This document shows, one piece after another, positions 1 to 42,564 of a DNA stretch of 42,564 nt. Position 1 is the stretch's first letter, and the number at the start of each line of letters is the position of its first letter. Under the pieces are notes generated by a model. It did not search any database. It saw only the letters and a program-made list of their open reading frames with translations, and had not been told where the DNA came from. The stretch is from a virus. Taxonomy: Duplodnaviria; Caudoviricetes. Position numbers and translations under genes: made by a program. The stretch lies in the IMG/VR virus record IMGVR_UViG_3300046382_000009, positions 1-42,564 of that record; one strand, given 5' to 3'.

Positions 1-139
1 GGTGAATGGCACTGGCGGCATCACCGGAATCTCCAGCACGATTGTTGGTCTGGTAGACGTTCCTCCAACGAATCCCCTCACGCAAGATTCCACTTCCGGA
101 GTTGGCGTTGGGGCTACTTTCAATGCCGACTTCATCGAG
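1..139. repeat. Terminal direct repeat (copy at 42426-42564); circular assembly overlap
   Basis: 1-139 matches 42426-42564 except C127/T42552 (synonymous GCC/GCT); the reading frame is continuous across the junction. Confidence 0.95.
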
Positions 140-14827: not shown

Positions 14828-15151
14828 TCAGAACGGAATATCGTCGTCTTCAAACCCACCGGAATTGGCATCTTCTGGTGGCACGCGCTGTCTGTCGCCC
14901 CTTGGTTTCTGACGAGGCTCTCGGGCCTGCTTTTCTTCTTCCTTGGATTTCTTCTCGCGCGGAACCGTGATCGCCAGTGACATATAGGTTTCACCGCTGC
15001 CCGCAGTCTTCTCCCACGCAGCGATGTCCCATATCTCTCCGGCCATGCTGAACGTGCCTCGAAAATCAGGAGAGGATTCTCCCGGCTTCTTGAACTTGTT
15101 AAGGAACATGACGCCGCTCATGTCCTTTTGTTTGTATTCTTTTTTGCCCAT
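14828..15151 (-). CDS. Single-stranded DNA-binding protein-like
   Basis: 'PDFRG...IAAWEK...YMSL' OB-like core and acidic tail 'EDDDIPF'. Confidence 0.75.
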   Translation of the reverse strand: MGKKEYKQKDMSGVMFLNKFKKPGESSPDFRGTFSMAGEIWDIAAWEKTAGSGETYMSLAITVPREKKSKEEEKQAREPRQKPRGDRQRVPPEDANSGGFEDDDIPF

Positions 15152-16254: not shown

Positions 16255-16869
16255 TTATCTCTTAGCCCTGACGCGATCCAGAAACGATCCAACCTTCTGC
16301 TGCTGATCCTTGTGCGGCTGAGGGTCTGGCGTTGGCTCAACCACCTTGGCGGGAACAGACAAGATGTAGTCCAGTGTCTTCTGCCCGTACACCTCCAGAA
16401 CCTCCTCCTCGCCCAGCCTCTCCAGCAACAGACGCGCGCAAAGCTCATCACTCCGATGAGGCTTGAACGGAATCCCGTGATCCAGATACAGCCGAAGAAG
16501 CTCCTCGCCCTTAACTCGACTCCCCTGCACTGCGTAATGCCCGCCACACAGAGGACTCCCGCCGTTGGTTACGCTCCACAAGGCTGGGCATCGCTGTCCG
16601 TTCACCGTGAAGCTGCACTGCATGTCACGACTGCCGCCACCGTCCCCAGTCTTGTCCTCGCCGTGAATCCGTTTCATCACATCCGCAGGCATGGGCGCGA
16701 ACCGGCCGTATTTCATGTGAGCATCCAGAGCCCGACTCACATCCGACAGATACTCGTCTTTAAGGGCATCCCACCAGATGGCGAGCTCCTCGGGCGTAGT
16801 CGTCTTGCTATAAAACGACCGCGCCCGATGAACTTCCTTGAACAGCTTTTCTCTGTCTGTTGGAATCAT
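16255..16869 (-). CDS. Helicase loader/inhibitor-like replication protein (lambda P / G39P-like)
   Basis: 'WWDALKD...VSRALDAH...FAPMPADV' followed by a Cys/His cluster. Confidence 0.6.
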   Translation of the reverse strand: MIPTDREKLFKEVHRARSFYSKTTTPEELAIWWDALKDEYLSDVSRALDAHMKYGRFAPMPADVMKRIHGEDKTGDGGGSRDMQCSFTVNGQRCPALWSVTNGGSPLCGGHYAVQGSRVKGEELLRLYLDHGIPFKPHRSDELCARLLLERLGEEEVLEVYGQKTLDYILSVPAKVVEPTPDPQPHKDQQQKVGSFLDRVRAKR

Positions 16870-18353: not shown

Positions 18354-18671
18354 TTAATGTGTCTGTCTGATGCGCTCGCGATCAGCGATAGCTGCCTCTG
18401 CTTGCGCGAATACATCGTTACCATTCACCTCTTTACTCCAGCCCTTCTCTGCGTAAAACGTAGTCCAGCCTTGCTCTGTTGACGCGTCGATGATCTTGGT
18501 GATGTTCATCCCAAGCTCCAGAAACTCCACCAGCTTGTTTAGGGCTAACCGTTGAGCGCGGTCTGTGGTCGGGATGCGTTTCTCAAACCGCATCTCTAGC
18601 CAGCCATCCCAAGCCTCCGGGTCTACCCAATCAGGGAGCTGGATCGCCTTGGCCTTCGTCTTGACGGTCAT
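18354..18671 (-). CDS. Stand-alone C-terminal domain of a lambdoid replication initiator (O-like)
   Basis: 'LPDWVDPEAWDGWLEMR...TDRAQRLALNKL...IIDASTEQGWTTFY'. Confidence 0.7.
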   Translation of the reverse strand: MTVKTKAKAIQLPDWVDPEAWDGWLEMRFEKRIPTTDRAQRLALNKLVEFLELGMNITKIIDASTEQGWTTFYAEKGWSKEVNGNDVFAQAEAAIADRERIRQTH

Positions 18672-18899: not shown

Positions 18900-19001
18900 C
18901 TATTCCAGCGCACTCTGTTCCATGTACCGCTGTAACCACTTGCAGAATCTCAGCCACGCCGTAGAGGGCTGTTCCTCTGCTTCCCACAGACGCTCATTCA
19001 C
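18900..19001 (-). CDS. 33-aa small ORF not in the ORF track (MNERLWEAEEQPSTAWLRFCKWLQRYMEQSALE)
   Basis: GTGA overlap with the stop of 18998-19315; fills the gap up to the next SD. Confidence 0.45.
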   Translation of the reverse strand: MNERLWEAEEQPSTAWLRFCKWLQRYMEQSALE

Positions 19002-19315
19002 GCCTTCGTCTTCCGGGGTTTCTCAACAACCTCGTCAGCGAACATCTGCTTCATGTCCTCGTCTGGTGGGATGCGGAGCAAGCAGCGAGTAGCGATGTAT
19101 TGGTTAGTTCCATTGGTAACTGGGGTTGGCCCCGTCAGGTTCATTAAATAAATCTCGCCTTCAGTGTCGCGGCGCAACAGTGGATCACTCAGAACATCGA
19201 CAACAAGACCGTTTTCGCTCTTGTTGGAGAACTTTCTGGTTCCCGATAAGTGAAATCGAACACCAACAATCATCGCCCTATCGCCCTTCATCGGTACTTG
19301 TCTCTTGTCTTTCAT
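18998..19315 (-). CDS. Hypothetical protein
   Basis: SD GGAG; 'GDRAMIV...LLRIPP' SH3-like phage family pattern. Confidence 0.6.
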   Translation of the reverse strand: MKDKRQVPMKGDRAMIVGVRFHLSGTRKFSNKSENGLVVDVLSDPLLRRDTEGEIYLMNLTGPTPVTNGTNQYIATRCLLRIPPDEDMKQMFADEVVEKPRKTKA

Positions 19316-19317
19316 GT

Positions 19318-19788
19318 CTATTCTCCTGACTTTTTAACGGCAGTGTTCCTGACCAACTCCGGCATGTCGCATCCCCGCGAGTGATTGCATGGCTTGCAGG
19401 CCAGTACCCGGTTGTTGGAATTGTCCAGACCTCCGCGAGCAAGTGGGATCAAATGCTCAATCGTGGAATTCTCCAGCGTGAGTGGGGCATTGCACCAATG
19501 GCAAAAGGCTTTTTTCTTAAGCATGGCGTACCGCTTCCCGTGCGAGTTCTTGCTCCGCCTGTCTCGAATCATTGCCATCTGTGGCTCGGAAAATGCCATC
19601 TCAACAGCCTGAGCAGGCGAGCAATTCTTCTTTCCGCGAACCGTCCCCGCTACATACGCTGTCCTGCTTTTTGACAGCGGGTAGTAATTGACCAAGAGCG
19701 CACCCTTGATCTGAAAATGACCGTTGCCGTGGCTGACGACCGTGGCGCCTTTCGCCTCAGCCAGCTTCACAAGATCGGAATTCATCAT
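19318..19788 (-). CDS. HNH endonuclease with N-terminal extra domain
   Basis: 'CHWC...TIEHLIPLARGGLD...NRVLACKPCN'; SD GGAGG. Confidence 0.88.
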   Translation of the reverse strand: MMNSDLVKLAEAKGATVVSHGNGHFQIKGALLVNYYPLSKSRTAYVAGTVRGKKNCSPAQAVEMAFSEPQMAMIRDRRSKNSHGKRYAMLKKKAFCHWCNAPLTLENSTIEHLIPLARGGLDNSNNRVLACKPCNHSRGCDMPELVRNTAVKKSGE

Positions 19789-19844
19789 CGACCTCCAGTA
19801 AGTAATTCAGACTGAAAAACCAGAAAATGGGAAAACAAACCGAA

Positions 19845-20102
19845 CCCCCCTACCCCCCGTAGGTAAACGGGAGGCAGCAGCTTCAAGGCTGCAAGGTTTA
19901 AAAAAGGGAAAAGAGAAAAAGCCGTTATCCTCATGGACGAGGACAAGAGCTTTTGCTCTACGCCCGCCAGACGACAAAAACCCTCAAGGGAGAGGCCAGC
20001 GGGTTGGCGGTCACAGGTAGAAAGTTCTGTGGTGCCAGCCCCTCTCTTGAGGGTTCGGCTTTCTACTTGTGGGAACCGCCAAGCTCCCGCTGGTTTTTCG
20101 TC
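19845..20102 (-). ncRNA. Structured cis-regulatory / c4-like antisense RNA element (core 20030-20093)
   Basis: CCAGC/GCUGG closing stem with ACCA 3' end and two internal hairpins; downstream complementary segments; alternative long stem followed by a U-run; further hairpins and a G6-UA-G6 tract. Confidence 0.65.
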
Positions 20103-20143
20103 CAGCGCGGCCATTCTCGTTCCTGCTTTTGCTGATGTCAACT

Positions 20144-20890
20144 TCATTTCGCTTCTCTCCACTTGCGCAGATTGTGAGAGCCGGGAAAATATCCAAGACG
20201 TTCAGCGGTTTCGTGGATCGTGTCGCTGCAAATAACTTCCAGCGTTTCGATCTTCACGTTGTCCGCAGTCCACGGCAGTGTCTTGTCCTTGCGCGTCATG
20301 CAGTATTTCTTCGCGCCTAAGCCATGTTCGGGCCATTTGCCGGATTCCTCCCAAACCTTCCACCAGTCCGCGAAATTCATCTGCCATACACCCTGTTCGA
20401 GGCGGTCAATGTTTCGCTTCTTTTCGATAAACGCTTTCTGAGGTGAAAACTTCCAATGGCTTCCGCGAAGTGCCTTCCATTGCTCTCTAGGCATCCCCGT
20501 CCGCTTAAGAAAGCGCGCATCGCGTTTGCTGCTCCATTCTTCCTTGCGCTTCTCTGAAACCACATGCTGGCCGCCGTCATTTCGGGTGATGCCAGACTTA
20601 ACAAGAATCTGCCGGATGCGTTCTCGGGTCACGCCGTGTTCTTGGCCTAAGTCCTCCAGCGTTCTACCGCTCTTGTAGGCCGCTATCAGTTCCGGTACAT
20701 TCCATCTGCTGGCCTTTCTCCCTGAGCCAGCCTTGATGTGGTCTTTTCCCCGAGACGCACACTCCTCCGATTTCCCCGGTTGCTCTGCTTCCGGGGATTT
20801 TTTATTACGGGCCACTGCTTTCAACTTCCGGCCTGCCGCAAATAACAGATTGGCGGCATCCAGCAGCACTTTAGATTCTTTCTCGTTCAT
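20144..20890 (-). CDS. Sigma70 region-4-like HTH fused to a degenerate HNH-like domain
   Basis: 'TLEDLGQEHGVTRERIRQIL'; C-terminal 'FADWWKVWEESGKW...YCMTRKDKTLPWTADNV'; AGGAG SD before ATG 20890. Confidence 0.7.
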   Translation of the reverse strand: MNEKESKVLLDAANLLFAAGRKLKAVARNKKSPEAEQPGKSEECASRGKDHIKAGSGRKASRWNVPELIAAYKSGRTLEDLGQEHGVTRERIRQILVKSGITRNDGGQHVVSEKRKEEWSSKRDARFLKRTGMPREQWKALRGSHWKFSPQKAFIEKKRNIDRLEQGVWQMNFADWWKVWEESGKWPEHGLGAKKYCMTRKDKTLPWTADNVKIETLEVICSDTIHETAERLGYFPGSHNLRKWREAK

Positions 20891-20898
20891 GGGAACTC

Positions 20899-21180
20899 CT
20901 AGTTCAAAATATCCGACAACAGCCACGCCTGAGTCTGGTCAGCGTAGACAGAAAACTCCTTGTCCGACAGACCGGAGGTGCCGTTAGGCTTGCGATACCA
21001 GACACCGTCGATCATCACTTCCTCGCTCCCGAGAAACTTGCAGGCCGCGATGAAATGCAGGCGATCAACGTCTGTTCCTGTAGCGACAGCGGCCTCCCGA
21101 AGCAGGGCCCAGTAACGAGCATTCGCCGCCTTGCTGCGCTTGGGCGTCTGTCCGCAGGTTGGGCATGTGGAGGACTTCAT
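20899..21180 (-). CDS. ninB: NinB-like recombination protein
   Basis: 'RSKAANARYWALL...TSGLSDKEFSVYADQTQAW'. Confidence 0.7.
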   Translation of the reverse strand: MKSSTCPTCGQTPKRSKAANARYWALLREAAVATGTDVDRLHFIAACKFLGSEEVMIDGVWYRKPNGTSGLSDKEFSVYADQTQAWLLSDILN

Positions 21181-21770: not shown

Positions 21771-22031
21771 TCACTGTCCTCCGTAAATCCAGAAATAGAC
21801 GAAAACCGAGACGATGTAAGCGACAACGCACATCACGATGAAGCCGACGAACAGATCACCCGCGATCCGCGCCAATTCAGACCAAGGCGAATGCTTGCGC
21901 GCAATCACATAGTCATGCCGCACCTTTGCCGGAGGGCCCATGCCGAACGGATTAAAGAACCCGACAACAAGGCCGACAGCGCCCACCGAAATCAGAGCGA
22001 TCAGGAAACAAACAACTTTCATACTAATCAT
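21771..22031 (-). CDS. Two-TM membrane protein
   Basis: Two hydrophobic segments; coupled to neighbouring genes. Confidence 0.55.
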   Translation of the reverse strand: MISMKVVCFLIALISVGAVGLVVGFFNPFGMGPPAKVRHDYVIARKHSPWSELARIAGDLFVGFIVMCVVAYIVSVFVYFWIYGGQ

Positions 22032-22288
22032 GGTTTCACCTTCTTTCTGCTGTAGTGATATTCGGCTACGCGCTTCTTGCGGCCCACTTCCTTGCTCGTG
22101 GCCGGGATGTTGTGCCCCAGTGCGCGAAGATCATAGATACGTGCCGACAGACGCAGGCAATCAAACAGGCGTAGAGCCGTCAGTTGCGTCAGCCGTCCAC
22201 CAGCCTTGAGATATTTCAGGATGGCTTTGTTCTGTGATTCGGTGTCTGGCTCAGAACAGCCGGAACTTGGGATGAAATTAATCTGCAT
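22028..22288 (-). CDS. Winged HTH DNA-binding protein
   Basis: 'SQNKAILKYL...LTQLTAL...CLRLSARIYDLR..GHNI'. Confidence 0.8.
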   Translation of the reverse strand: MQINFIPSSGCSEPDTESQNKAILKYLKAGGRLTQLTALRLFDCLRLSARIYDLRALGHNIPATSKEVGRKKRVAEYHYSRKKVKP

Positions 22289-23692: not shown

Positions 23693-25126
23693 TTATGCAA
23701 CTTCGCGGTGAACGGCGTCGATCTTGTCGTTGGTCTTCGCCAGCGACTTGGCGACAATGCCCTGCATAACATCATGCAAGGTCGGTTCTTTCACGGCGTG
23801 TTCTTCTTCGGCGCACTTGCGCAACAGATTCACTTGCGCGCTCATGGTTTCCGCTGCGTCGATCAAGGCGTCTTCCGTGATTTCTTCAACGGCAGTTCCC
23901 GTCTTTTGCAGTGCCAACTGCGCGAGCTTGGCGCGTTTCACCACTTCCGCAATGACGGCCGGAATGTTACCGGCCAGCAATGCACCGGCTTTGCTCAGGT
24001 CAGCGCCTTCCGAGATGGTCTTGCCGCCGTACAGACGCAACAGACGTTCCACAGCCTTCTGATCTGGCGCCAGCACTTCAATCACTGCATCCAGACGGCC
24101 CGGACGCAACATGGCCGGATTAATGCTCGGCAGGTTGTTGGTGGTCAGCACGACAATGATGTTGGCGCTCTTGGTGTCGATACCGTCGATGATGTTGAGT
24201 ACGTCATCCATGGCAACAGAACGCTCACCCGAGGCGACACGGTCGATGTCTTCGCAGAACACCACACAAGCCGGGCTCTGATACTGTTTGGCGAATTCGA
24301 TAGCATCGCTCAACTCGTCAGCGCGGGGCACGTACACGTAAGTGATACCGGCGCGAACCGCGAGTTTGCTTGCCACCTTCGCCGCCAGCGTCTTACCCGT
24401 GCCGAACGTGCCGCCCAACAGCACGCCACGCTTAACCGGAATGTTGTTGGCAATGCAGTCATGCACGCGAGTGATCGGCGTAAACAGATTGGTATGAATC
24501 GCCCGCTGCACGGAGTCCGGATAGACCAACAGCGACTCGTCCACATCTTCCGTATTCAGGAAACGCGGCTCGGGCATCTGGAGCTTTTCGCCGCTCTCGT
24601 CACGAAAACGGATTTTGATCGCCTTGCCACGGTAGATCGAGTTCGTTTCCGTTTCCTTGCGCACGGCGTCAAACAGGTCTTTAATCGTGGCTTCATCCTT
24701 GCGCAAAATCTGTGCAATCACTTCAAACACGATACGGCCTTCGCGGTGCGTGTAGCTGGTCTTCACCACACCGGAAACATTCGGGAGGCCAAAATCACCC
24801 CATGCGATATTCTTCTTCACGCCGGGCGCCACTTCAATCGCCATAAGCTGCGGAGGCGTAGGGCCGAACATGCCGGGCGAGGCTTGTGCAGGGCTCCAGC
24901 CATATTTGCGGGTCAGCACAGCATCCAGAGCATGAGCCCCATCCCACGGAAACACATCGAACGATTCGCGCATAACCACCTTTTCGCCTTCATAGGCCTT
25001 GCGGCGCTGTAGGAGGTCAATCGCGGCATCAATCCCCATCCCGACAGGCAGTGTCACCTGTTCGCCGTGATAGACGATCTGTGCAACGCTGGCGGCCTTT
25101 ACTGCATCTTTTAACGTATTGGACAT
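23693..25126 (-). CDS. Classical-clade AAA+ ATPase (FtsH/proteasome-ATPase-like domain)
   Basis: Walker A 'GTFGTGKT', Walker B 'VVFCEDID', SRH 'TTN...NPAMLRPGRLD'. Confidence 0.9.
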   Translation of the reverse strand: MSNTLKDAVKAASVAQIVYHGEQVTLPVGMGIDAAIDLLQRRKAYEGEKVVMRESFDVFPWDGAHALDAVLTRKYGWSPAQASPGMFGPTPPQLMAIEVAPGVKKNIAWGDFGLPNVSGVVKTSYTHREGRIVFEVIAQILRKDEATIKDLFDAVRKETETNSIYRGKAIKIRFRDESGEKLQMPEPRFLNTEDVDESLLVYPDSVQRAIHTNLFTPITRVHDCIANNIPVKRGVLLGGTFGTGKTLAAKVASKLAVRAGITYVYVPRADELSDAIEFAKQYQSPACVVFCEDIDRVASGERSVAMDDVLNIIDGIDTKSANIIVVLTTNNLPSINPAMLRPGRLDAVIEVLAPDQKAVERLLRLYGGKTISEGADLSKAGALLAGNIPAVIAEVVKRAKLAQLALQKTGTAVEEITEDALIDAAETMSAQVNLLRKCAEEEHAVKEPTLHDVMQGIVAKSLAKTNDKIDAVHREVA

Positions 25127-25194
25127 AACTGATACTCCATTGCTACCGGGTGGAATTACCCGGCTTTAATAGACGGCCCATGTAGGGCCGCCCG

Positions 25195-26064
25195 TTAAAG
25201 CCTAGGCGGCCCCTCCTGTCCGGGGGCGAGGATGGCACCAGACAACCATTCACGCGCCTTATTGAGGTTTGCAGACTGCCAATTAGGTACTGTAATCAGA
25301 TGCTCGTTTGCACCGACAAGTCCATAGCTCAAAAGCTCTTTATTGGTCAGATGACGGGCATGGCCGTAGCCATCTGCAACAGGCTGTTTTGTATCGTCGG
25401 CGGTCTTGATGATCTTCATGAATCCAATCACCCGAAAGAACGCCGTCAGACACACAACAGACGACAATGAAGCTACGTCCATGGGTGATTGATAGTCCTT
25501 GATGGTCAGGAACTCAACGGAACTCATGGGCGCATTACGGCCAGCCTGATAACCGCTGATTTTGACGTTATACCCGGCCGCATTCAGGAGGTCAGCCAGC
25601 GCGAGGCAAGCGGCCCCGCGCAGCGACAGACAAGCCGCATCCATACTGCCGTTCTCGCAATAGTCCACGACCAGATGCACGTTGGGGCGCATGTTGATCA
25701 TGCGGCGCGAGGGCCTACGCCATGCAACATCCAACTGGCCGCCCCTCACCCTATCCATGCAAACCTCCTCGCCTTGGTCAGCCCACTGCGGACGGCGACG
25801 GATGCTATCCAGTAGCGGCACGGAAAGACCGTCCGCCATATCTCGCACCTTGTCCGCGCCCTCTTGATCGCCCTCCCGCATAACGCGGGAGAGGTCTTCA
25901 AAGGTGCCGGACATACCGTGCCAGTTCTTATGCAAGGTGCTCCCCTTTTCGGTTTGGGCTTGCACGGCGTTATGCGGGATATTGCATGGGAGCATGGCCT
26001 GTTCGACGAACTCAGAAACGGAGTCCAGCGAGGTAACGTAGGTTCCATCTTTGTGTTGGAACAT
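25195..26064 (-). CDS. vWA-like (CobT-like) partner protein
   Basis: Directly downstream of the CobS-like ATPase; 'GEEVCMDRV..G', degenerate MIDAS 'VVDYCENGS', 'AFFR'. Confidence 0.65.
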   Translation of the reverse strand: MFQHKDGTYVTSLDSVSEFVEQAMLPCNIPHNAVQAQTEKGSTLHKNWHGMSGTFEDLSRVMREGDQEGADKVRDMADGLSVPLLDSIRRRPQWADQGEEVCMDRVRGGQLDVAWRRPSRRMINMRPNVHLVVDYCENGSMDAACLSLRGAACLALADLLNAAGYNVKISGYQAGRNAPMSSVEFLTIKDYQSPMDVASLSSVVCLTAFFRVIGFMKIIKTADDTKQPVADGYGHARHLTNKELLSYGLVGANEHLITVPNWQSANLNKAREWLSGAILAPGQEGPPRL

Positions 26065-27275
26065 TACGCACCTACCTTGGCAAGCTCGTCCTTTGTCCAG
26101 CCGCTCAACAGATCGGTTTTGACTTCATCCCACGACAGACCGGCCGACAGTGCAGCGGCACCCTTCTGAACCATACGGGTAGAGATAACCCGGCGAAGTT
26201 TTGCGCGGCTTGCGCCTTCGCGGAGTTTCCATACGAACTGACAGACGTGAGAGGGGGCAAGCTCCTGTTCCAGTGCGCGGTCATAGTCGACGTTGACGAT
26301 GTACCAGCGGTCTAGGGTAGCTGCATCCAACTGGGCACGGCCTACGTACATCGCATCCGCACCATTGCCGAACGTGTTAGCAGAGCCGATTTGCACAGCC
26401 TCCGCATGACGGGTCAGACGCGAACCGGACACTGGGTTATCGAATCCGCCATTGGCGAGGGCGCTGTTAGTGGTGATGAGCATGTTTGCGTCAGCCGCAT
26501 CCAGTTCATCGTGAAGGAACACGGATGGAACCTGATAAAGCTCTGCAAAGCGGGAGGTTTGATATTCAAACTTCCCACCCTCGCCCGTAGGCAACAGACG
26601 GCCCAACAGCCACGACTCTGACGCTCCAGCGGAATAGCTCACACTGCCAAAGGGCCTGTTAAGGGCCTTGGCAACCTCGTGCGCAAGGTGCGTCTTGCCA
26701 CAGCCCGCAGGGCCGACGAGCAACACGTTGATCCCTTGGGCCGCAAGGCGCAGCACTTTCTCAAACGAGGGATGCTGACGTGCAGGGCTGTTGTAATCAG
26801 GCTTGTCCGCAATCTTCACCACAATTTCACGCGGCTTGATGCCTGAGACTGCCTCGTCGACGATACGTTTAACCGCCTCCTCGTCAATGCCCGGACGCGC
26901 GCCAGACATAAGCAAAGCCATGGCCTGTTGGATCATCGCGGCAGCATCGCCTGCGGCCGCAGGATTAGCCGCAGGGCGCGCAGAAGGCGCGGGCATAGGG
27001 GAAGGGGCAGACGGGGCTGGGGCGGGCTCCTGCGCGCTTGGGATGGGCTCGGCGTCGGTGATGTTCGCCATGAAATGCGCGATGGACGTGTTAATCATTG
27101 CCAGATTAACGGCGTAGTCGACGAGCTTGGGCTTTGTGTTGGTGCGCTCGTCGCGGTCAAGATCAAACGAACCAGCGGAGGCGAGTCCGTGCGAGTGACG
27201 GACAATGCCTTGGATGCGCTTGACGGGGAAGGACTCCAGCTTTGCGCGGATGGCTTCAAAATTGTGTTGTGTCAT
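26064..27275 (-). CDS. CobS/MoxR-like AAA+ ATPase
   Basis: 'VLLVGPAGCGKT', 'FLHDELDAAD', 'ANTFGNGA..YVGRAQLDAATLDRW'. Confidence 0.9.
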   Translation of the reverse strand: MTQHNFEAIRAKLESFPVKRIQGIVRHSHGLASAGSFDLDRDERTNTKPKLVDYAVNLAMINTSIAHFMANITDAEPIPSAQEPAPAPSAPSPMPAPSARPAANPAAAGDAAAMIQQAMALLMSGARPGIDEEAVKRIVDEAVSGIKPREIVVKIADKPDYNSPARQHPSFEKVLRLAAQGINVLLVGPAGCGKTHLAHEVAKALNRPFGSVSYSAGASESWLLGRLLPTGEGGKFEYQTSRFAELYQVPSVFLHDELDAADANMLITTNSALANGGFDNPVSGSRLTRHAEAVQIGSANTFGNGADAMYVGRAQLDAATLDRWYIVNVDYDRALEQELAPSHVCQFVWKLREGASRAKLRRVISTRMVQKGAAALSAGLSWDEVKTDLLSGWTKDELAKVGA

Positions 27276-29203: not shown

Positions 29204-29278
29204 TGGCGTGTAGCTCAGAGGCAGAGCGGCGGATTGTTAATCCGTTGGTCGTTGGTTCGATTCCAGCAGGGCGCACCA
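29204..29278 (+). tRNA. tRNA-Asn(GTT)-like gene with mispaired acceptor stem (chimeric or pseudo-tRNA)
   Basis: D arm GCTC/GAGC; anticodon arm GCGGA-TTGTTAA-TCCGT; T arm GTTGG-TTCGATT-CCAGC; encoded CCA; acceptor strands TGGCGTG and AGGGCGC do not pair. Confidence 0.8.
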
Positions 29279-35210: not shown

Positions 35211-35343
35211 GTTGGACGAGGTCAAAAGCGAGTGGGCCAATGACAAGCTCATGGACAACCACAGCAACTCAAAGGCCATAGGGTCAGCCCTGACGTTGCG
35301 CAACACCATTGACCACATCGAATCACTAGGAGAGCAGGAATAA
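35104..35343 (+). CDS. Small post-portal protein
   Basis: 'WAQWKAMPQTK' pattern; overlaps the portal 3' end; coupled to GroES. Confidence 0.55.
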   Translation: MTELSTSATSLSTPADWAQWKAMPQTKELIQLLQSELDEVKSEWANDKLMDNHSNSKAIGSALTLRNTIDHIESLGEQE

Positions 35344-35705
35344 TGGATCAGAAAACAGGTTTGTCAGCATTGGGTCGCACGGTTCTGGTGGAGTTGCAGG
35401 AGGTTGAGGAAACCACCAAGTCAGGCATCGTTGTTTTCTCGGAATCTGAAAAGACCCGCGAGAGCATGGCGCAGGTAGAGGCGGTGATTCTTGATTTCGG
35501 TACGTCCTGCTGGGATGACCAGTCCGGCGCGTATTCAAACGTGAAGGTGGGTGATCGCGTGATTATCGCCAAGTACGCCGGGATGTTGATCGACAAGCGC
35601 ACAACCAAAGACGGTCGAAGCTGCTACCGATTGATCAACGACCTTGAAGTTAAATGCCTGATTGGCTGGAAGAATCAGGACGAACAGACGCAGAAAGCGG
35701 CCTAA
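35343..35705 (+). CDS. groES: GroES-like co-chaperonin
   Basis: 'LGRTVLV...EETTKSGIV', 'VKVGDRVIIAKYAG', 'YRLIND'. Confidence 0.9.
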   Translation: MDQKTGLSALGRTVLVELQEVEETTKSGIVVFSESEKTRESMAQVEAVILDFGTSCWDDQSGAYSNVKVGDRVIIAKYAGMLIDKRTTKDGRSCYRLINDLEVKCLIGWKNQDEQTQKAA

Positions 35706-41911: not shown

Positions 41912-42564
41912 TGTCTTCGGTTTCGGACACCGTTGAGCAGCGCATCTCCTTCACTGAATCCTACGATCCTCAGTTTGGATTCATCACAGATGCGATAGTC
42001 GATCCAGAATTGGAAGGTGCGCGCACGCCCGTCATGGCGCGTCCAGCTATCGTGATGCAGAACGATCTTGGAACATTAACGGCCTCAACAGTTCCAGTGG
42101 CCCTCACGTTCTTCCGGGCGCTAACCAACTTTGGCGAGAAAGAATATGCCGTGGTGATGAACGCCAGCGGGCCCGGCGTCGACCGTTACCACATCAGCAT
42201 CTATAACCTGACCGATAATGTTCTCGTCGGAACCTTGGATGTTATTGGTGACACCACAACCATTCCTCTGAGCGGCACATTCACTCCGGCAGCAAACTCG
42301 GTCTGGTCGCTTTCAAGCATCGTTCCAGCGGCGCCGGGCACGGGGTATGTTGTCGGGGACATCGTCTACATCAACGGAATTGAATTCATCAACGGCGTGA
42401 TCGGGGAAGGCGTCACTGTGACATCGGTGAATGGCACTGGCGGCATCACCGGAATCTCCAGCACGATTGTTGGTCTGGTAGACGTTCCTCCAACGAATCC
42501 CCTCACGCAAGATTCCACTTCCGGAGTTGGCGTTGGGGCTACTTTCAATGCTGACTTCATCGAG
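41911..42564 (+). CDS. N-terminal part of gp10-like tail hub protein (continues at the window start)
   Basis: TAATG overlap; frame is open to the end of the window and matches ORF 2..1294. Confidence 0.8.
   Translation, partial: MSSVSDTVEQRISFTESYDPQFGFITDAIVDPELEGARTPVMARPAIVMQNDLGTLTASTVPVALTFFRALTNFGEKEYAVVMNASGPGVDRYHISIYNLTDNVLVGTLDVIGDTTTIPLSGTFTPAANSVWSLSSIVPAAPGTGYVVGDIVYINGIEFINGVIGEGVTVTSVNGTGGITGISSTIVGLVDVPPTNPLTQDSTSGVGVGATFNADFIE
42426..42564. repeat. Terminal direct repeat (copy of 1-139)
   Basis: 138 of 139 positions identical. Confidence 0.95.

What the first reader, a model, noticed from the sequence alone, without database searches (positions are those of the whole stretch)
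19966..20102. c4/CI-like RNA switch with tRNA-like 3' end, UUGGCG loop and mutually exclusive terminator, upstream of HNH and replication genes
Seen on the minus (sense) strand: 20093 to 20030 folds as CCAGC-[GGGAGC UUGGCG GUUCCC]-ACAAGUAGAAAGCCGAA-[CCCUC AAGA GAGGG]-GCUGG-C-ACCA. Just downstream are complements of its single-stranded parts (CUUUCUACCUGUG and ACCGCCAA, plus-strand 19996-20024). A segment at 19979-19995 pairs with the second hairpin region (20041-20055) and is followed by UUUUU. The two long pairings interleave (A-B-A'-B'), so they are either alternative folds or a pseudoknot. Established: phage P1 C4 and P4 CI RNAs are RNase P-processed antisense RNAs acting on complementary sites in their own transcript, and a UUGGCG loop drives the antisense/pseudoknot control of IncI-type rep translation. 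Inference: this is an RNA-only attenuation or immunity switch over the downstream HNH and replication operon, in a phage with no recognisable CI repressor.
Basis: partly seen in the sequence, partly recalled or inferred. Interest (0 to 1): 0.8.

Follow-up and report, generated by a model that had tools for sequence, protein, structure and literature searches.

The report
Terminator-fused antisense switch before phage replication

Summary
The UUGGCG hairpin (20088-20071) and GUAGAAAG (20066-20059) sit where P1's a1/b1 targets sit. The C4/CI-like partner is the downstream hairpin 20056-19976: 22-bp stem, loop and bulge complementary to those sites, then U5 (-39.7 kcal/mol, z -5.6). The proposed 64-nt ACCA-ended fold has probability 0.006. 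No C4, c4-a1b1 or isrK match, while P1 and P4 controls match. 11 of 38 viral pattern hits share the design; stems covary (20 of 25 pairs) and each loop pairs with its own leader (0 of 10^6 shuffles as good). 8 of the first 9 precede a replication initiator. No integrase in 13 carrier records, 8 near-complete. Likely mechanism: pairing in cis blocks the terminator; terminated RNA binds new leaders in trans and restores it. No transcript was seen. The scan noted this design before on other DNA. New variant of a known kind; interest 0.55.

The parts
20113..20141 (-). Sigma-70-like promoter, TTGACA-17-GAGAAT; start site inferred near 20106
   Evidence: 10 of 12 matches. A TTG..A..T promoter-like site lies within 50 nt of the first box in 7 of 9 relatives against 11 of 94 other pattern hits.
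20089..20106 (-). Leader hairpin 1 (5 bp, A-rich loop); same position as the first hairpin of the P1 and P4 leaders
   Evidence: its 5' arm can also pair with 19975-19962 in read-through RNA.
20071..20088 (-). Leader hairpin 2 showing target box a1 (UUGGCGGU, 20082-20075)
   Evidence: A stem of 3 bp or more closes the box in 8 of 9 relatives against 9 of 94 other hits.
20059..20066 (-). Target box b1 (GUAGAAAG), single-stranded, just before the long stem; the variable, phage-specific box
   Evidence: 8 Watson-Crick pairs with 20024-20017; differs in every relative and keeps its own partner.
19976..20056 (-). Antisense partner and predicted intrinsic terminator in one: 22-bp stem, inner hairpin, bulge, U5; 81 nt
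   Evidence: -39.7 kcal/mol, z -5.62; best hit in the window of a model built without it, 24 bits, E 0.0013.
20012..20031 (-). Inner hairpin whose 10-nt loop holds b' (CUUUCUAC, 20024-20017)
   Evidence: same place as the b' loop of P1 C4.
20001..20011 (-). 11-nt bulge holding a' (ACCGCCAA, 20011-20004)
   Evidence: same place as the a' bulge of P1 C4.
19956..19969 (-). Possible weak second target pair (UGGCGG, GUAGAG), like P1 a2/b2; weakly supported
   Evidence: 6+6 pairs; one of 9 such sites on this strand; no gain in co-folding; no equivalent seen in 9 relatives.
19900..19964 (-). Second long hairpin followed by U6; possible second terminator
   Evidence: z -5.44, 0 of 200 shuffles; terminator-like core 19946-19925; no homologue to test.
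19785..20147 (-). 120-codon frame across the whole cassette, with GGAGAG before it and ATGA overlaps at both ends; candidate eta-like bypass frame
   Evidence: Open in 42 of 3000 shuffles for the frame, 119 of 3000 for any frame; no PHROG match; a spanning frame with an upstream start in 3 of 14 cassettes.
19318..19788 (-). First downstream gene: HNH endonuclease
   Evidence: PHROGs and Pfam HNH_5; 181 relatives.
18354..18671 (-). Replication-initiator O-like protein (C-terminal domain only) in the downstream operon
   Evidence: phrog_678, E 6.7e-16, profile positions 210-290.
16255..16869 (-). Helicase-loader-like gene, further down the same strand (SSB-like gene at 14828-15151)
   Evidence: phrog_2289, E 2.4e-4; phrog_18154.

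Best explanation
The region is likely a compact, same-strand antisense attenuator in which the antisense RNA is predicted to be its own terminator. Shown by sequence and comparison: a promoter, two leader hairpins, boxes a1 and b1, then a long hairpin that displays a' and b' unpaired and ends in a U run, upstream of replication genes. Inferred steps: (1) in a newly infected cell a1 and b1 pair in cis with a' and b' as these emerge, before the 3' arm of the long stem exists, so the terminator cannot form and RNA polymerase reads into the HNH and replication operon; (2) transcripts that do terminate fold into the long hairpin with a' and b' exposed; (3) probably after loss of the leader, this 77-85 nt RNA binds a1/b1 on new transcripts in trans, blocks the cis pairing and so restores termination; (4) the result would be a self-limiting burst of initiator expression and shut-off of later-arriving phage with the same b box. 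In this genome a coupled reading frame across the cassette may let upstream transcripts bypass the switch, as eta does in P4.
For: Order and spacing match P1's annotated promoter, a1, b1, c4. Folding: cis-paired form -61.4 against -58.6 for the terminator form in the window; in 9 relatives the terminator form is the best full-length fold by a wide margin, while a1:a' pairs in the nascent RNA of 7 of 9. Family: 11 of 38 viral hits. Stem: 85.5% of cells paired, 20 of 25 pairs changed on both sides. b/b' was not in any search pattern, yet the cognate assignment is the single best of 362,880 (9 sequences) and 0 of 10^6 random assignments equal it with 11; the two members found later each pair best with their own leader. 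A pattern without a1 gave 7 true hairpins of 24 hits and all 7 carry a1 upstream (the same contigs as before). a/a' changes together in L249, L012, L007, L251. Replication initiator first or second downstream in 8 of 9. One copy per genome in 10 of 12 records. P4 CI blocks replication genes by termination (PMC4825925, passage); a GGCG/CGCC pair switched in cis and trans controls ColIb-P9 rep (PMC4705826, passages).
Against: No transcript, end or processing was observed. Covariation cannot tell pairing in cis from pairing in trans. Co-folding gave only -5.3 kcal/mol for the hairpin with the leader and needed refolding (nested folding cannot model kissing). The cognate b pair is strictly best in only 5 of 9 rows by energy and 3 of 9 by run length. 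The window scores only 24 bits on the family model, and lacks the small side hairpin of the 9 training-type members; a three-sequence alignment of its subtype was out of register and gave a covariation term of 0. No close homologue of this exact locus was found. The window's initiator gene lies four genes downstream and is only a C-terminal domain; L039 and L056 have no initiator next to them. The U run is 5 long and is followed by a second candidate terminator.
Confidence: 0.55

Rival explanations
1. A cis-only kinetic attenuator: a1/b1 pairing with a'/b' sets a fixed read-through fraction, or one tuned by transcription speed, a ribosome or a phage protein; the terminated RNA does nothing in trans because it folds back on its own leader as a pseudoknot.
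For: All covariation is explained by cis pairing. a1, b1, a' and b' are all unpaired in the terminator form, so a pseudoknot within one molecule is open. No CCA-type end follows the stem in 9 relatives. Weak computed binding in trans.
Against: Two separate exposed boxes, one constant and one phage-specific, on a 77-85 nt stem is the layout of C4 and CI, which act in trans. A plain antiterminator needs only to overlap the stem.
Confidence: 0.27
2. A maintenance system for a non-integrating carrier or plasmid-like state: the RNA is the copy-number and incompatibility control, as CI is for P4 and Inc RNA for ColIb-P9. Same molecular steps as the best explanation, different purpose; not exclusive of it.
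For: No tyrosine integrase in 13 records, no serine recombinase, no S24 repressor domain in 11; 0 of 66 hits in prokaryote genomes carry the design; direct link to initiators.
Against: No ParA in 12 records. HTH_3 genes occur in 6 of 11 records and a repressor-like gene precedes L249, so protein control is not excluded. Lifestyle is unknown for all carriers; five DNA queries found no cultured carrier.
Confidence: 0.2
3. One reading: a 64-nt ACCA-ended RNA (20093-20030) cut out by RNase P acts on complementary sites downstream.
For: The letters allow the drawing, and the ACCA is there. P1 C4 ends in CACC after its stem.
Against: Fold probability 0.006, outer stem 5%; ACCA between the boxes in 1 of 9 relatives; in P1 the hairpin at this position is the annotated target; L061's leader gives a weak isrK (seqA-type target) match, 23.4 bits, E 0.39.
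Confidence: 0.05
4. A DNA-level structure (origin or primase signal on single-stranded DNA) or an ordinary terminator beside a chance inverted repeat.
For: Lies before replication genes; a further G-rich hairpin follows at 19871-19846.
Against: G-U pairs on the sense strand are kept, one in 9 of 10 sequences; promoter, U run and ribosome-binding site are all on one strand; chance is excluded.
Confidence: 0.08

Closest known systems
Phage P1/P7 C4 antisense RNA with a1/b1 and a2/b2 (Rfam RF01695, RF03163; clan CL00128)
   Same: Promoter, A-rich-loop hairpin, hairpin with a1, b1 7-9 nt later, then a 77-81 nt long-stem RNA with a loop and a bulge complementary to the boxes, all on one strand.
   Different: No model match. 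No small hairpin before the loop hairpin; 2-10 nt between b1 and the stem instead of about 66; stem ends in a U run, not CACC; downstream targets weak or absent; controls replication genes, not icd-ant translation.
Satellite phage P4 CI RNA with seqA (isrK family, RF01394) and seqC; eta bypass
   Same: Same-strand RNA pairing with an upstream leader to cause early termination before replication genes (PMC4825925); a coupled frame across the cassette (PMC10111431).
   Different: P4 matches C4 and isrK models, this does not; CI lies about 200 nt from seqA inside a Bro/ASH gene, here the antisense part is the terminator itself; carriers have no integrase.
IncI-alpha plasmid ColIb-P9 rep control (Inc RNA, GGCG/CGCC pseudoknot)
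   Same: UUGGCG loop that pairs in cis with a downstream CGCCAA to switch an initiator on and could be blocked in trans by an RNA showing the same CGCC (PMC4705826, passages).
   Different: Inc RNA is an opposite-strand transcript and control is translational with a leader peptide; here no opposite-strand promoter was found and the output is a terminator.
Rfam c4-2 motif (Weinberg 2017)
   Same: Described as a likely distant homologue of an earlier RNA (PMC5737381, passage).
   Different: No match in scans against all 4227 families. Its drawing is in a supplement that could not be read, so the structures were not compared.

Membership tests
C4 antisense RNA (RF01695) | Match to the covariance model | tested here: not met
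   No match at E<=10; P1 68.8 and P4 74.9 bits.
C4 antisense RNA (RF01695) | Long closing stem around two hairpins (P2, P3) and a bulge | tested here: not met
   Long stem, one hairpin and bulge; P2 absent. Nine relatives have a second hairpin on the other side of the bulge.
C4 antisense RNA (RF01695) | Loop and bulge complementary to two boxes in the same transcript's leader | tested here: met
   8+8 pairs in the window; covariation in relatives.
C4 antisense RNA (RF01695) | Second target pair downstream (a2/b2, seqC) | tested here: inconclusive
   6+6 match at 19969-19956, chance level; not seen in 9 relatives.
C4 antisense RNA (RF01695) | RNase P maturation at the base of the stem | not testable with these tools
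   No RNA data; stems end in U runs, not a CCA-like tail.
c4-a1b1 (RF03163) / isrK-seqA (RF01394) | Match to the covariance models | tested here: not met
   None in the window; one relative 23.4 bits to isrK, below the cut-off of 50.
c4-a1b1 (RF03163) / isrK-seqA (RF01394) | Two promoter-proximal hairpins, the second showing a target box | tested here: met
P4-type RNA immunity | Temperate element whose lysogenic state is kept by the RNA | tested here: inconclusive
   No integrase, recombinase, S24 repressor or ParA; lifestyle unknown.
IncI-type rep control | Opposite-strand antisense RNA and leader-peptide-coupled translation | tested here: not met
   Both promoter-like sites in 19000-21000 are on the minus strand; no conserved leader frame.
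   Best hit in 42.5 kb, 24 bits, E 0.0013, window not in training; same subtype as L038 and L056.

The most novel reading that the evidence does not exclude
A widespread class of integrase-less, CI-less phages controls its replication initiator with one 100-140 nt leader that is target, antisense RNA and terminator at once, giving plasmid-style copy control and sequence-specific exclusion between phages (the b box as the incompatibility code) and so a protein-free carrier state.
Probability: 0.25. Interest if true: 0.82.

Novelty: new variant of a known kind. Interest (0 to 1): 0.55.

Why it matters
C4, CI and the N15 equivalent are known from a few temperate enterobacterial elements. This design puts the same two-box logic into a single terminator in front of replication initiators of phages that lack integrase and CI-type repressor. 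If it works as inferred it shows how such phages limit initiator expression or exclude kin without a protein, and it offers a natural set of orthogonal, about 110-nt RNA attenuators. It is cheap to test with a reporter. The score is held down because the logic is known, no RNA has been seen, and this scan has already noted the design in at least five other genomes.

Tried and rejected
Direct homologues of this locus: exact 18-mer in viral contigs 0; blastn against cultured phages 3 short chance hits; single-protein anchors 0 loci; look-alike stretches in the scan 0. One search gave 2 hits: L001 looks like chance, L002 is unclear (15.8 bits on its terminator only); neither was counted. HNH-anchored loci: of 88 scanned, two distinct ones (L007 = L087, L012) have a similar cassette, and neither matches model R1, so the cassette does not travel with the HNH. 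Initiator-anchored loci: 78 of 80 scanned, 8 hairpins passed, 2 (L249, L251) show leader pairing, so most DUF1376 phages lack it. Prokaryote genomes: 0 of 66 (26 read in full, 40 as energies; one fragment at E 0.73). Four relatives as blastn queries found no cultured carrier; the two nearest virion relatives have no model match. Sequencing runs: no RNA holder listed; contigs of two DNA runs gave no variants, and the second run does not cover the element. Rfam hits at E<=10 are microRNA hairpin models far below their cut-offs. An HicA-like fold for the HNH's N-terminal part was an idea from memory and was not tested. In one search L068 was read on a wrong match (its hairpin is seen), and L038 and L056 were still among the 94 non-members, on the other strand. 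Literature: ten searches found no description of this compact family; the library lacks most subscription papers, and the descriptive supplements of PMC2864571 (S1, S3) and PMC5737381 could not be read and may bear on novelty.

Full report
Setting. The window is a soil phage genome with terminase, portal, capsid, ejection, tail and lysis genes on the plus strand and an early/replication arm on the minus strand. Its ends share a 139-nt repeat (138 identical) with one frame running across, so it is probably whole despite a completeness estimate of 59%. It has no tyrosine integrase, serine recombinase, S24 repressor domain, HTH_3 or ParA match. The finding lies between a helix-turn-helix gene (20926-20144) and an HNH gene (19788-19318), upstream of O-like, loader-like and SSB-like genes.

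Observation. The letters are as reported. Both long pairings are far beyond shuffles (z -8.35 and -5.62). The 64-nt three-way fold is not favoured: probability 0.006, outer stem 5%. A promoter-like site ends at 20113, followed by two hairpins.

Roles. I fetched P4 and P1. In P1 the -10 box is followed by an A-rich-loop hairpin, a hairpin with a1 in its loop, b1 seven bases later, and then C4: a long stem, a small hairpin, a hairpin whose loop matches b, and a bulge that matches a. The window has the same order: hairpin 20106-20089, a1 hairpin 20088-20071, b1 20066-20059, and a long stem 20056-19976 with a loop matching b1 and a bulge matching a1, lacking only the small hairpin and ending in U5. 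The c4-a1b1 target alignment shows the same two-hairpin leader (PMC2864571, supplement passages). Rfam does not see it, while P1 and P4 match C4, c4-a1b1 and isrK.

Relatives. A pattern asking only for a1, a' and a U run gave 38 viral loci. Nine, picked by eye from their folds, share promoter, a1 hairpin, long stem, inner hairpin, bulge, a small side hairpin and U run; none of the 38 has an Rfam match at the element. They are 43-69% identical apart from two related pairs (75% and 95%). On a MAFFT alignment of their hairpins plus L249, with a structure I drew from these sequences, 20 of 25 pairs change on both sides and sliding the partners halves the pairing (kinship and my choice of structure inflate this). 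A model from that alignment, without the window, finds 19974-20057 as the best hit in the window (24 bits, E 0.0013), does not hit P1 or P4, and finds two more members on the opposite strand of dropped hits, L038 and L056. These lack the side hairpin, like the window. That makes 11 of 38; 27 were dropped as chance.

The second box was in no pattern. Each loop pairs with the 25 nt behind its own a1: the true assignment is the single best of 362,880 for 9 sequences (L068 left out as a near copy), and none of 10^6 random assignments equals it for 11, though single rows are often tied or beaten (5 of 9 strictly best by energy). A pattern without a1 returned 7 true hairpins among 24 hits, the same contigs, all with a1 upstream. 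Loci reached through proteins add cassettes with other a boxes whose partners change in step (L249, L012, L007, L251). Eight of the first nine have a replication initiator as first or second gene; L038 has a DnaD-like second gene, L056 a homing endonuclease. No integrase was found in 13 records, 8 of them at least 90% complete; none of 66 prokaryote-genome hits has the design. HTH_3 genes occur in 6 of 11 records.

Mechanism. In the relatives the terminator form is the most stable full-length fold, but a1:a' pairs in the nascent RNA of 7 of 9 before the 3' arm exists; in the window the cis-paired form wins even at full length, -61.4 to -58.6, and leaves only a weak hairpin before the U run. 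This points to cis pairing as antiterminator (inferred). The terminated RNA shows a' and b' unpaired, which is what action in trans would need (inferred, not shown; one search gives only weak nested binding). P4 CI pairs with seqA and seqC to terminate before replication genes (PMC4825925; PMC3632133; passages), and ColIb-P9 uses one GGCG/CGCC pair in cis to switch on and in trans to switch off (PMC4705826, passages). C4 size, structure and RNase P processing are from PMC5320573 and PMC12197685 (passages). The primary P1 and P4 papers were not seen. I put the cis-plus-trans model at 0.55 and cis-only at 0.27.

The overlapping frame. 20147-19785 has a GGAGAG, overlaps the upstream stop and the HNH start by ATGA, and is open more often than expected (42 of 3000 shuffles for the frame, 119 for any). 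It has no family and only 3 of 14 cassettes have such a frame, so it does not explain the conservation. It fits P4 eta, whose translation lets an upstream promoter read through (PMC10111431, passage); this is a lead.

Verdict. A real, uncatalogued variant of the C4/CI kind, not a member of any Rfam family by model or full structure. Five earlier notes of this scan describe the same design on other genomes; I saw them after my comparisons and they agree, but they are not independent evidence. No published description was found in ten searches, with the gaps listed under Tried and rejected. Interest 0.55.

Noticed in passing
window 1-139 and 42426-42564: 139-nt direct repeat (138 identical) with one frame running across: the record is probably a whole circular genome although listed as linear and 59% complete.
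   Followed up: yes
window 20062-20050 and 19851-19839 (minus strand): A 13-bp possible long-range pairing (-23.3 kcal/mol) between the start of the long stem and a G-rich stretch before the HNH start; could be a further alternative fold.
   Followed up: partly
L004, L009, L011, L012, 160-300 nt before the HNH gene; window 19871-19838: 4 of 96 HNH loci share a non-coding leader with two purine-rich direct repeats, a GUCGGYU near the start codon and a complementary CCGAC upstream; the window has a faint echo. May be a second structured RNA or an origin.
   Followed up: partly
window 18354-18671: The O-like initiator match covers only the C-terminal domain; no N-terminal DNA-binding part was found nearby. 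Some DUF1376 initiators are fused to HNH domains (P0125, P0174, P0228).
   Followed up: no
window 19318-19788: The HNH has a conserved N-terminal part of about 65 residues with no family match; an RNA-binding fold is a recalled guess, untested.
   Followed up: no
window 23693-27275: Cluster of two AAA ATPases (one CobS/porphyrin-biosynthesis-like) and a DUF7192 gene at the start of the early arm.
   Followed up: no
window 29204-29274, 35343-35705: A tRNA-Asn gene and a GroES-like gene in the head module, shared with Alcaligenes phage vB_Af_QDWS535 and MW202796.
   Followed up: no
L032 356-1366; L058 1183-1413: Frames that start upstream of the promoter and cross the cassette: in frame with the initiator in L032, ATGA-coupled to the next gene in L058.
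   Followed up: partly
L043, L052, L068 upstream genes; window 22028-22288: A winged-helix gene of phrog_4973 lies just before the cassette in L043 and L052 (a similar frame in L068) and 1.9 kb upstream in the window.
   Followed up: no
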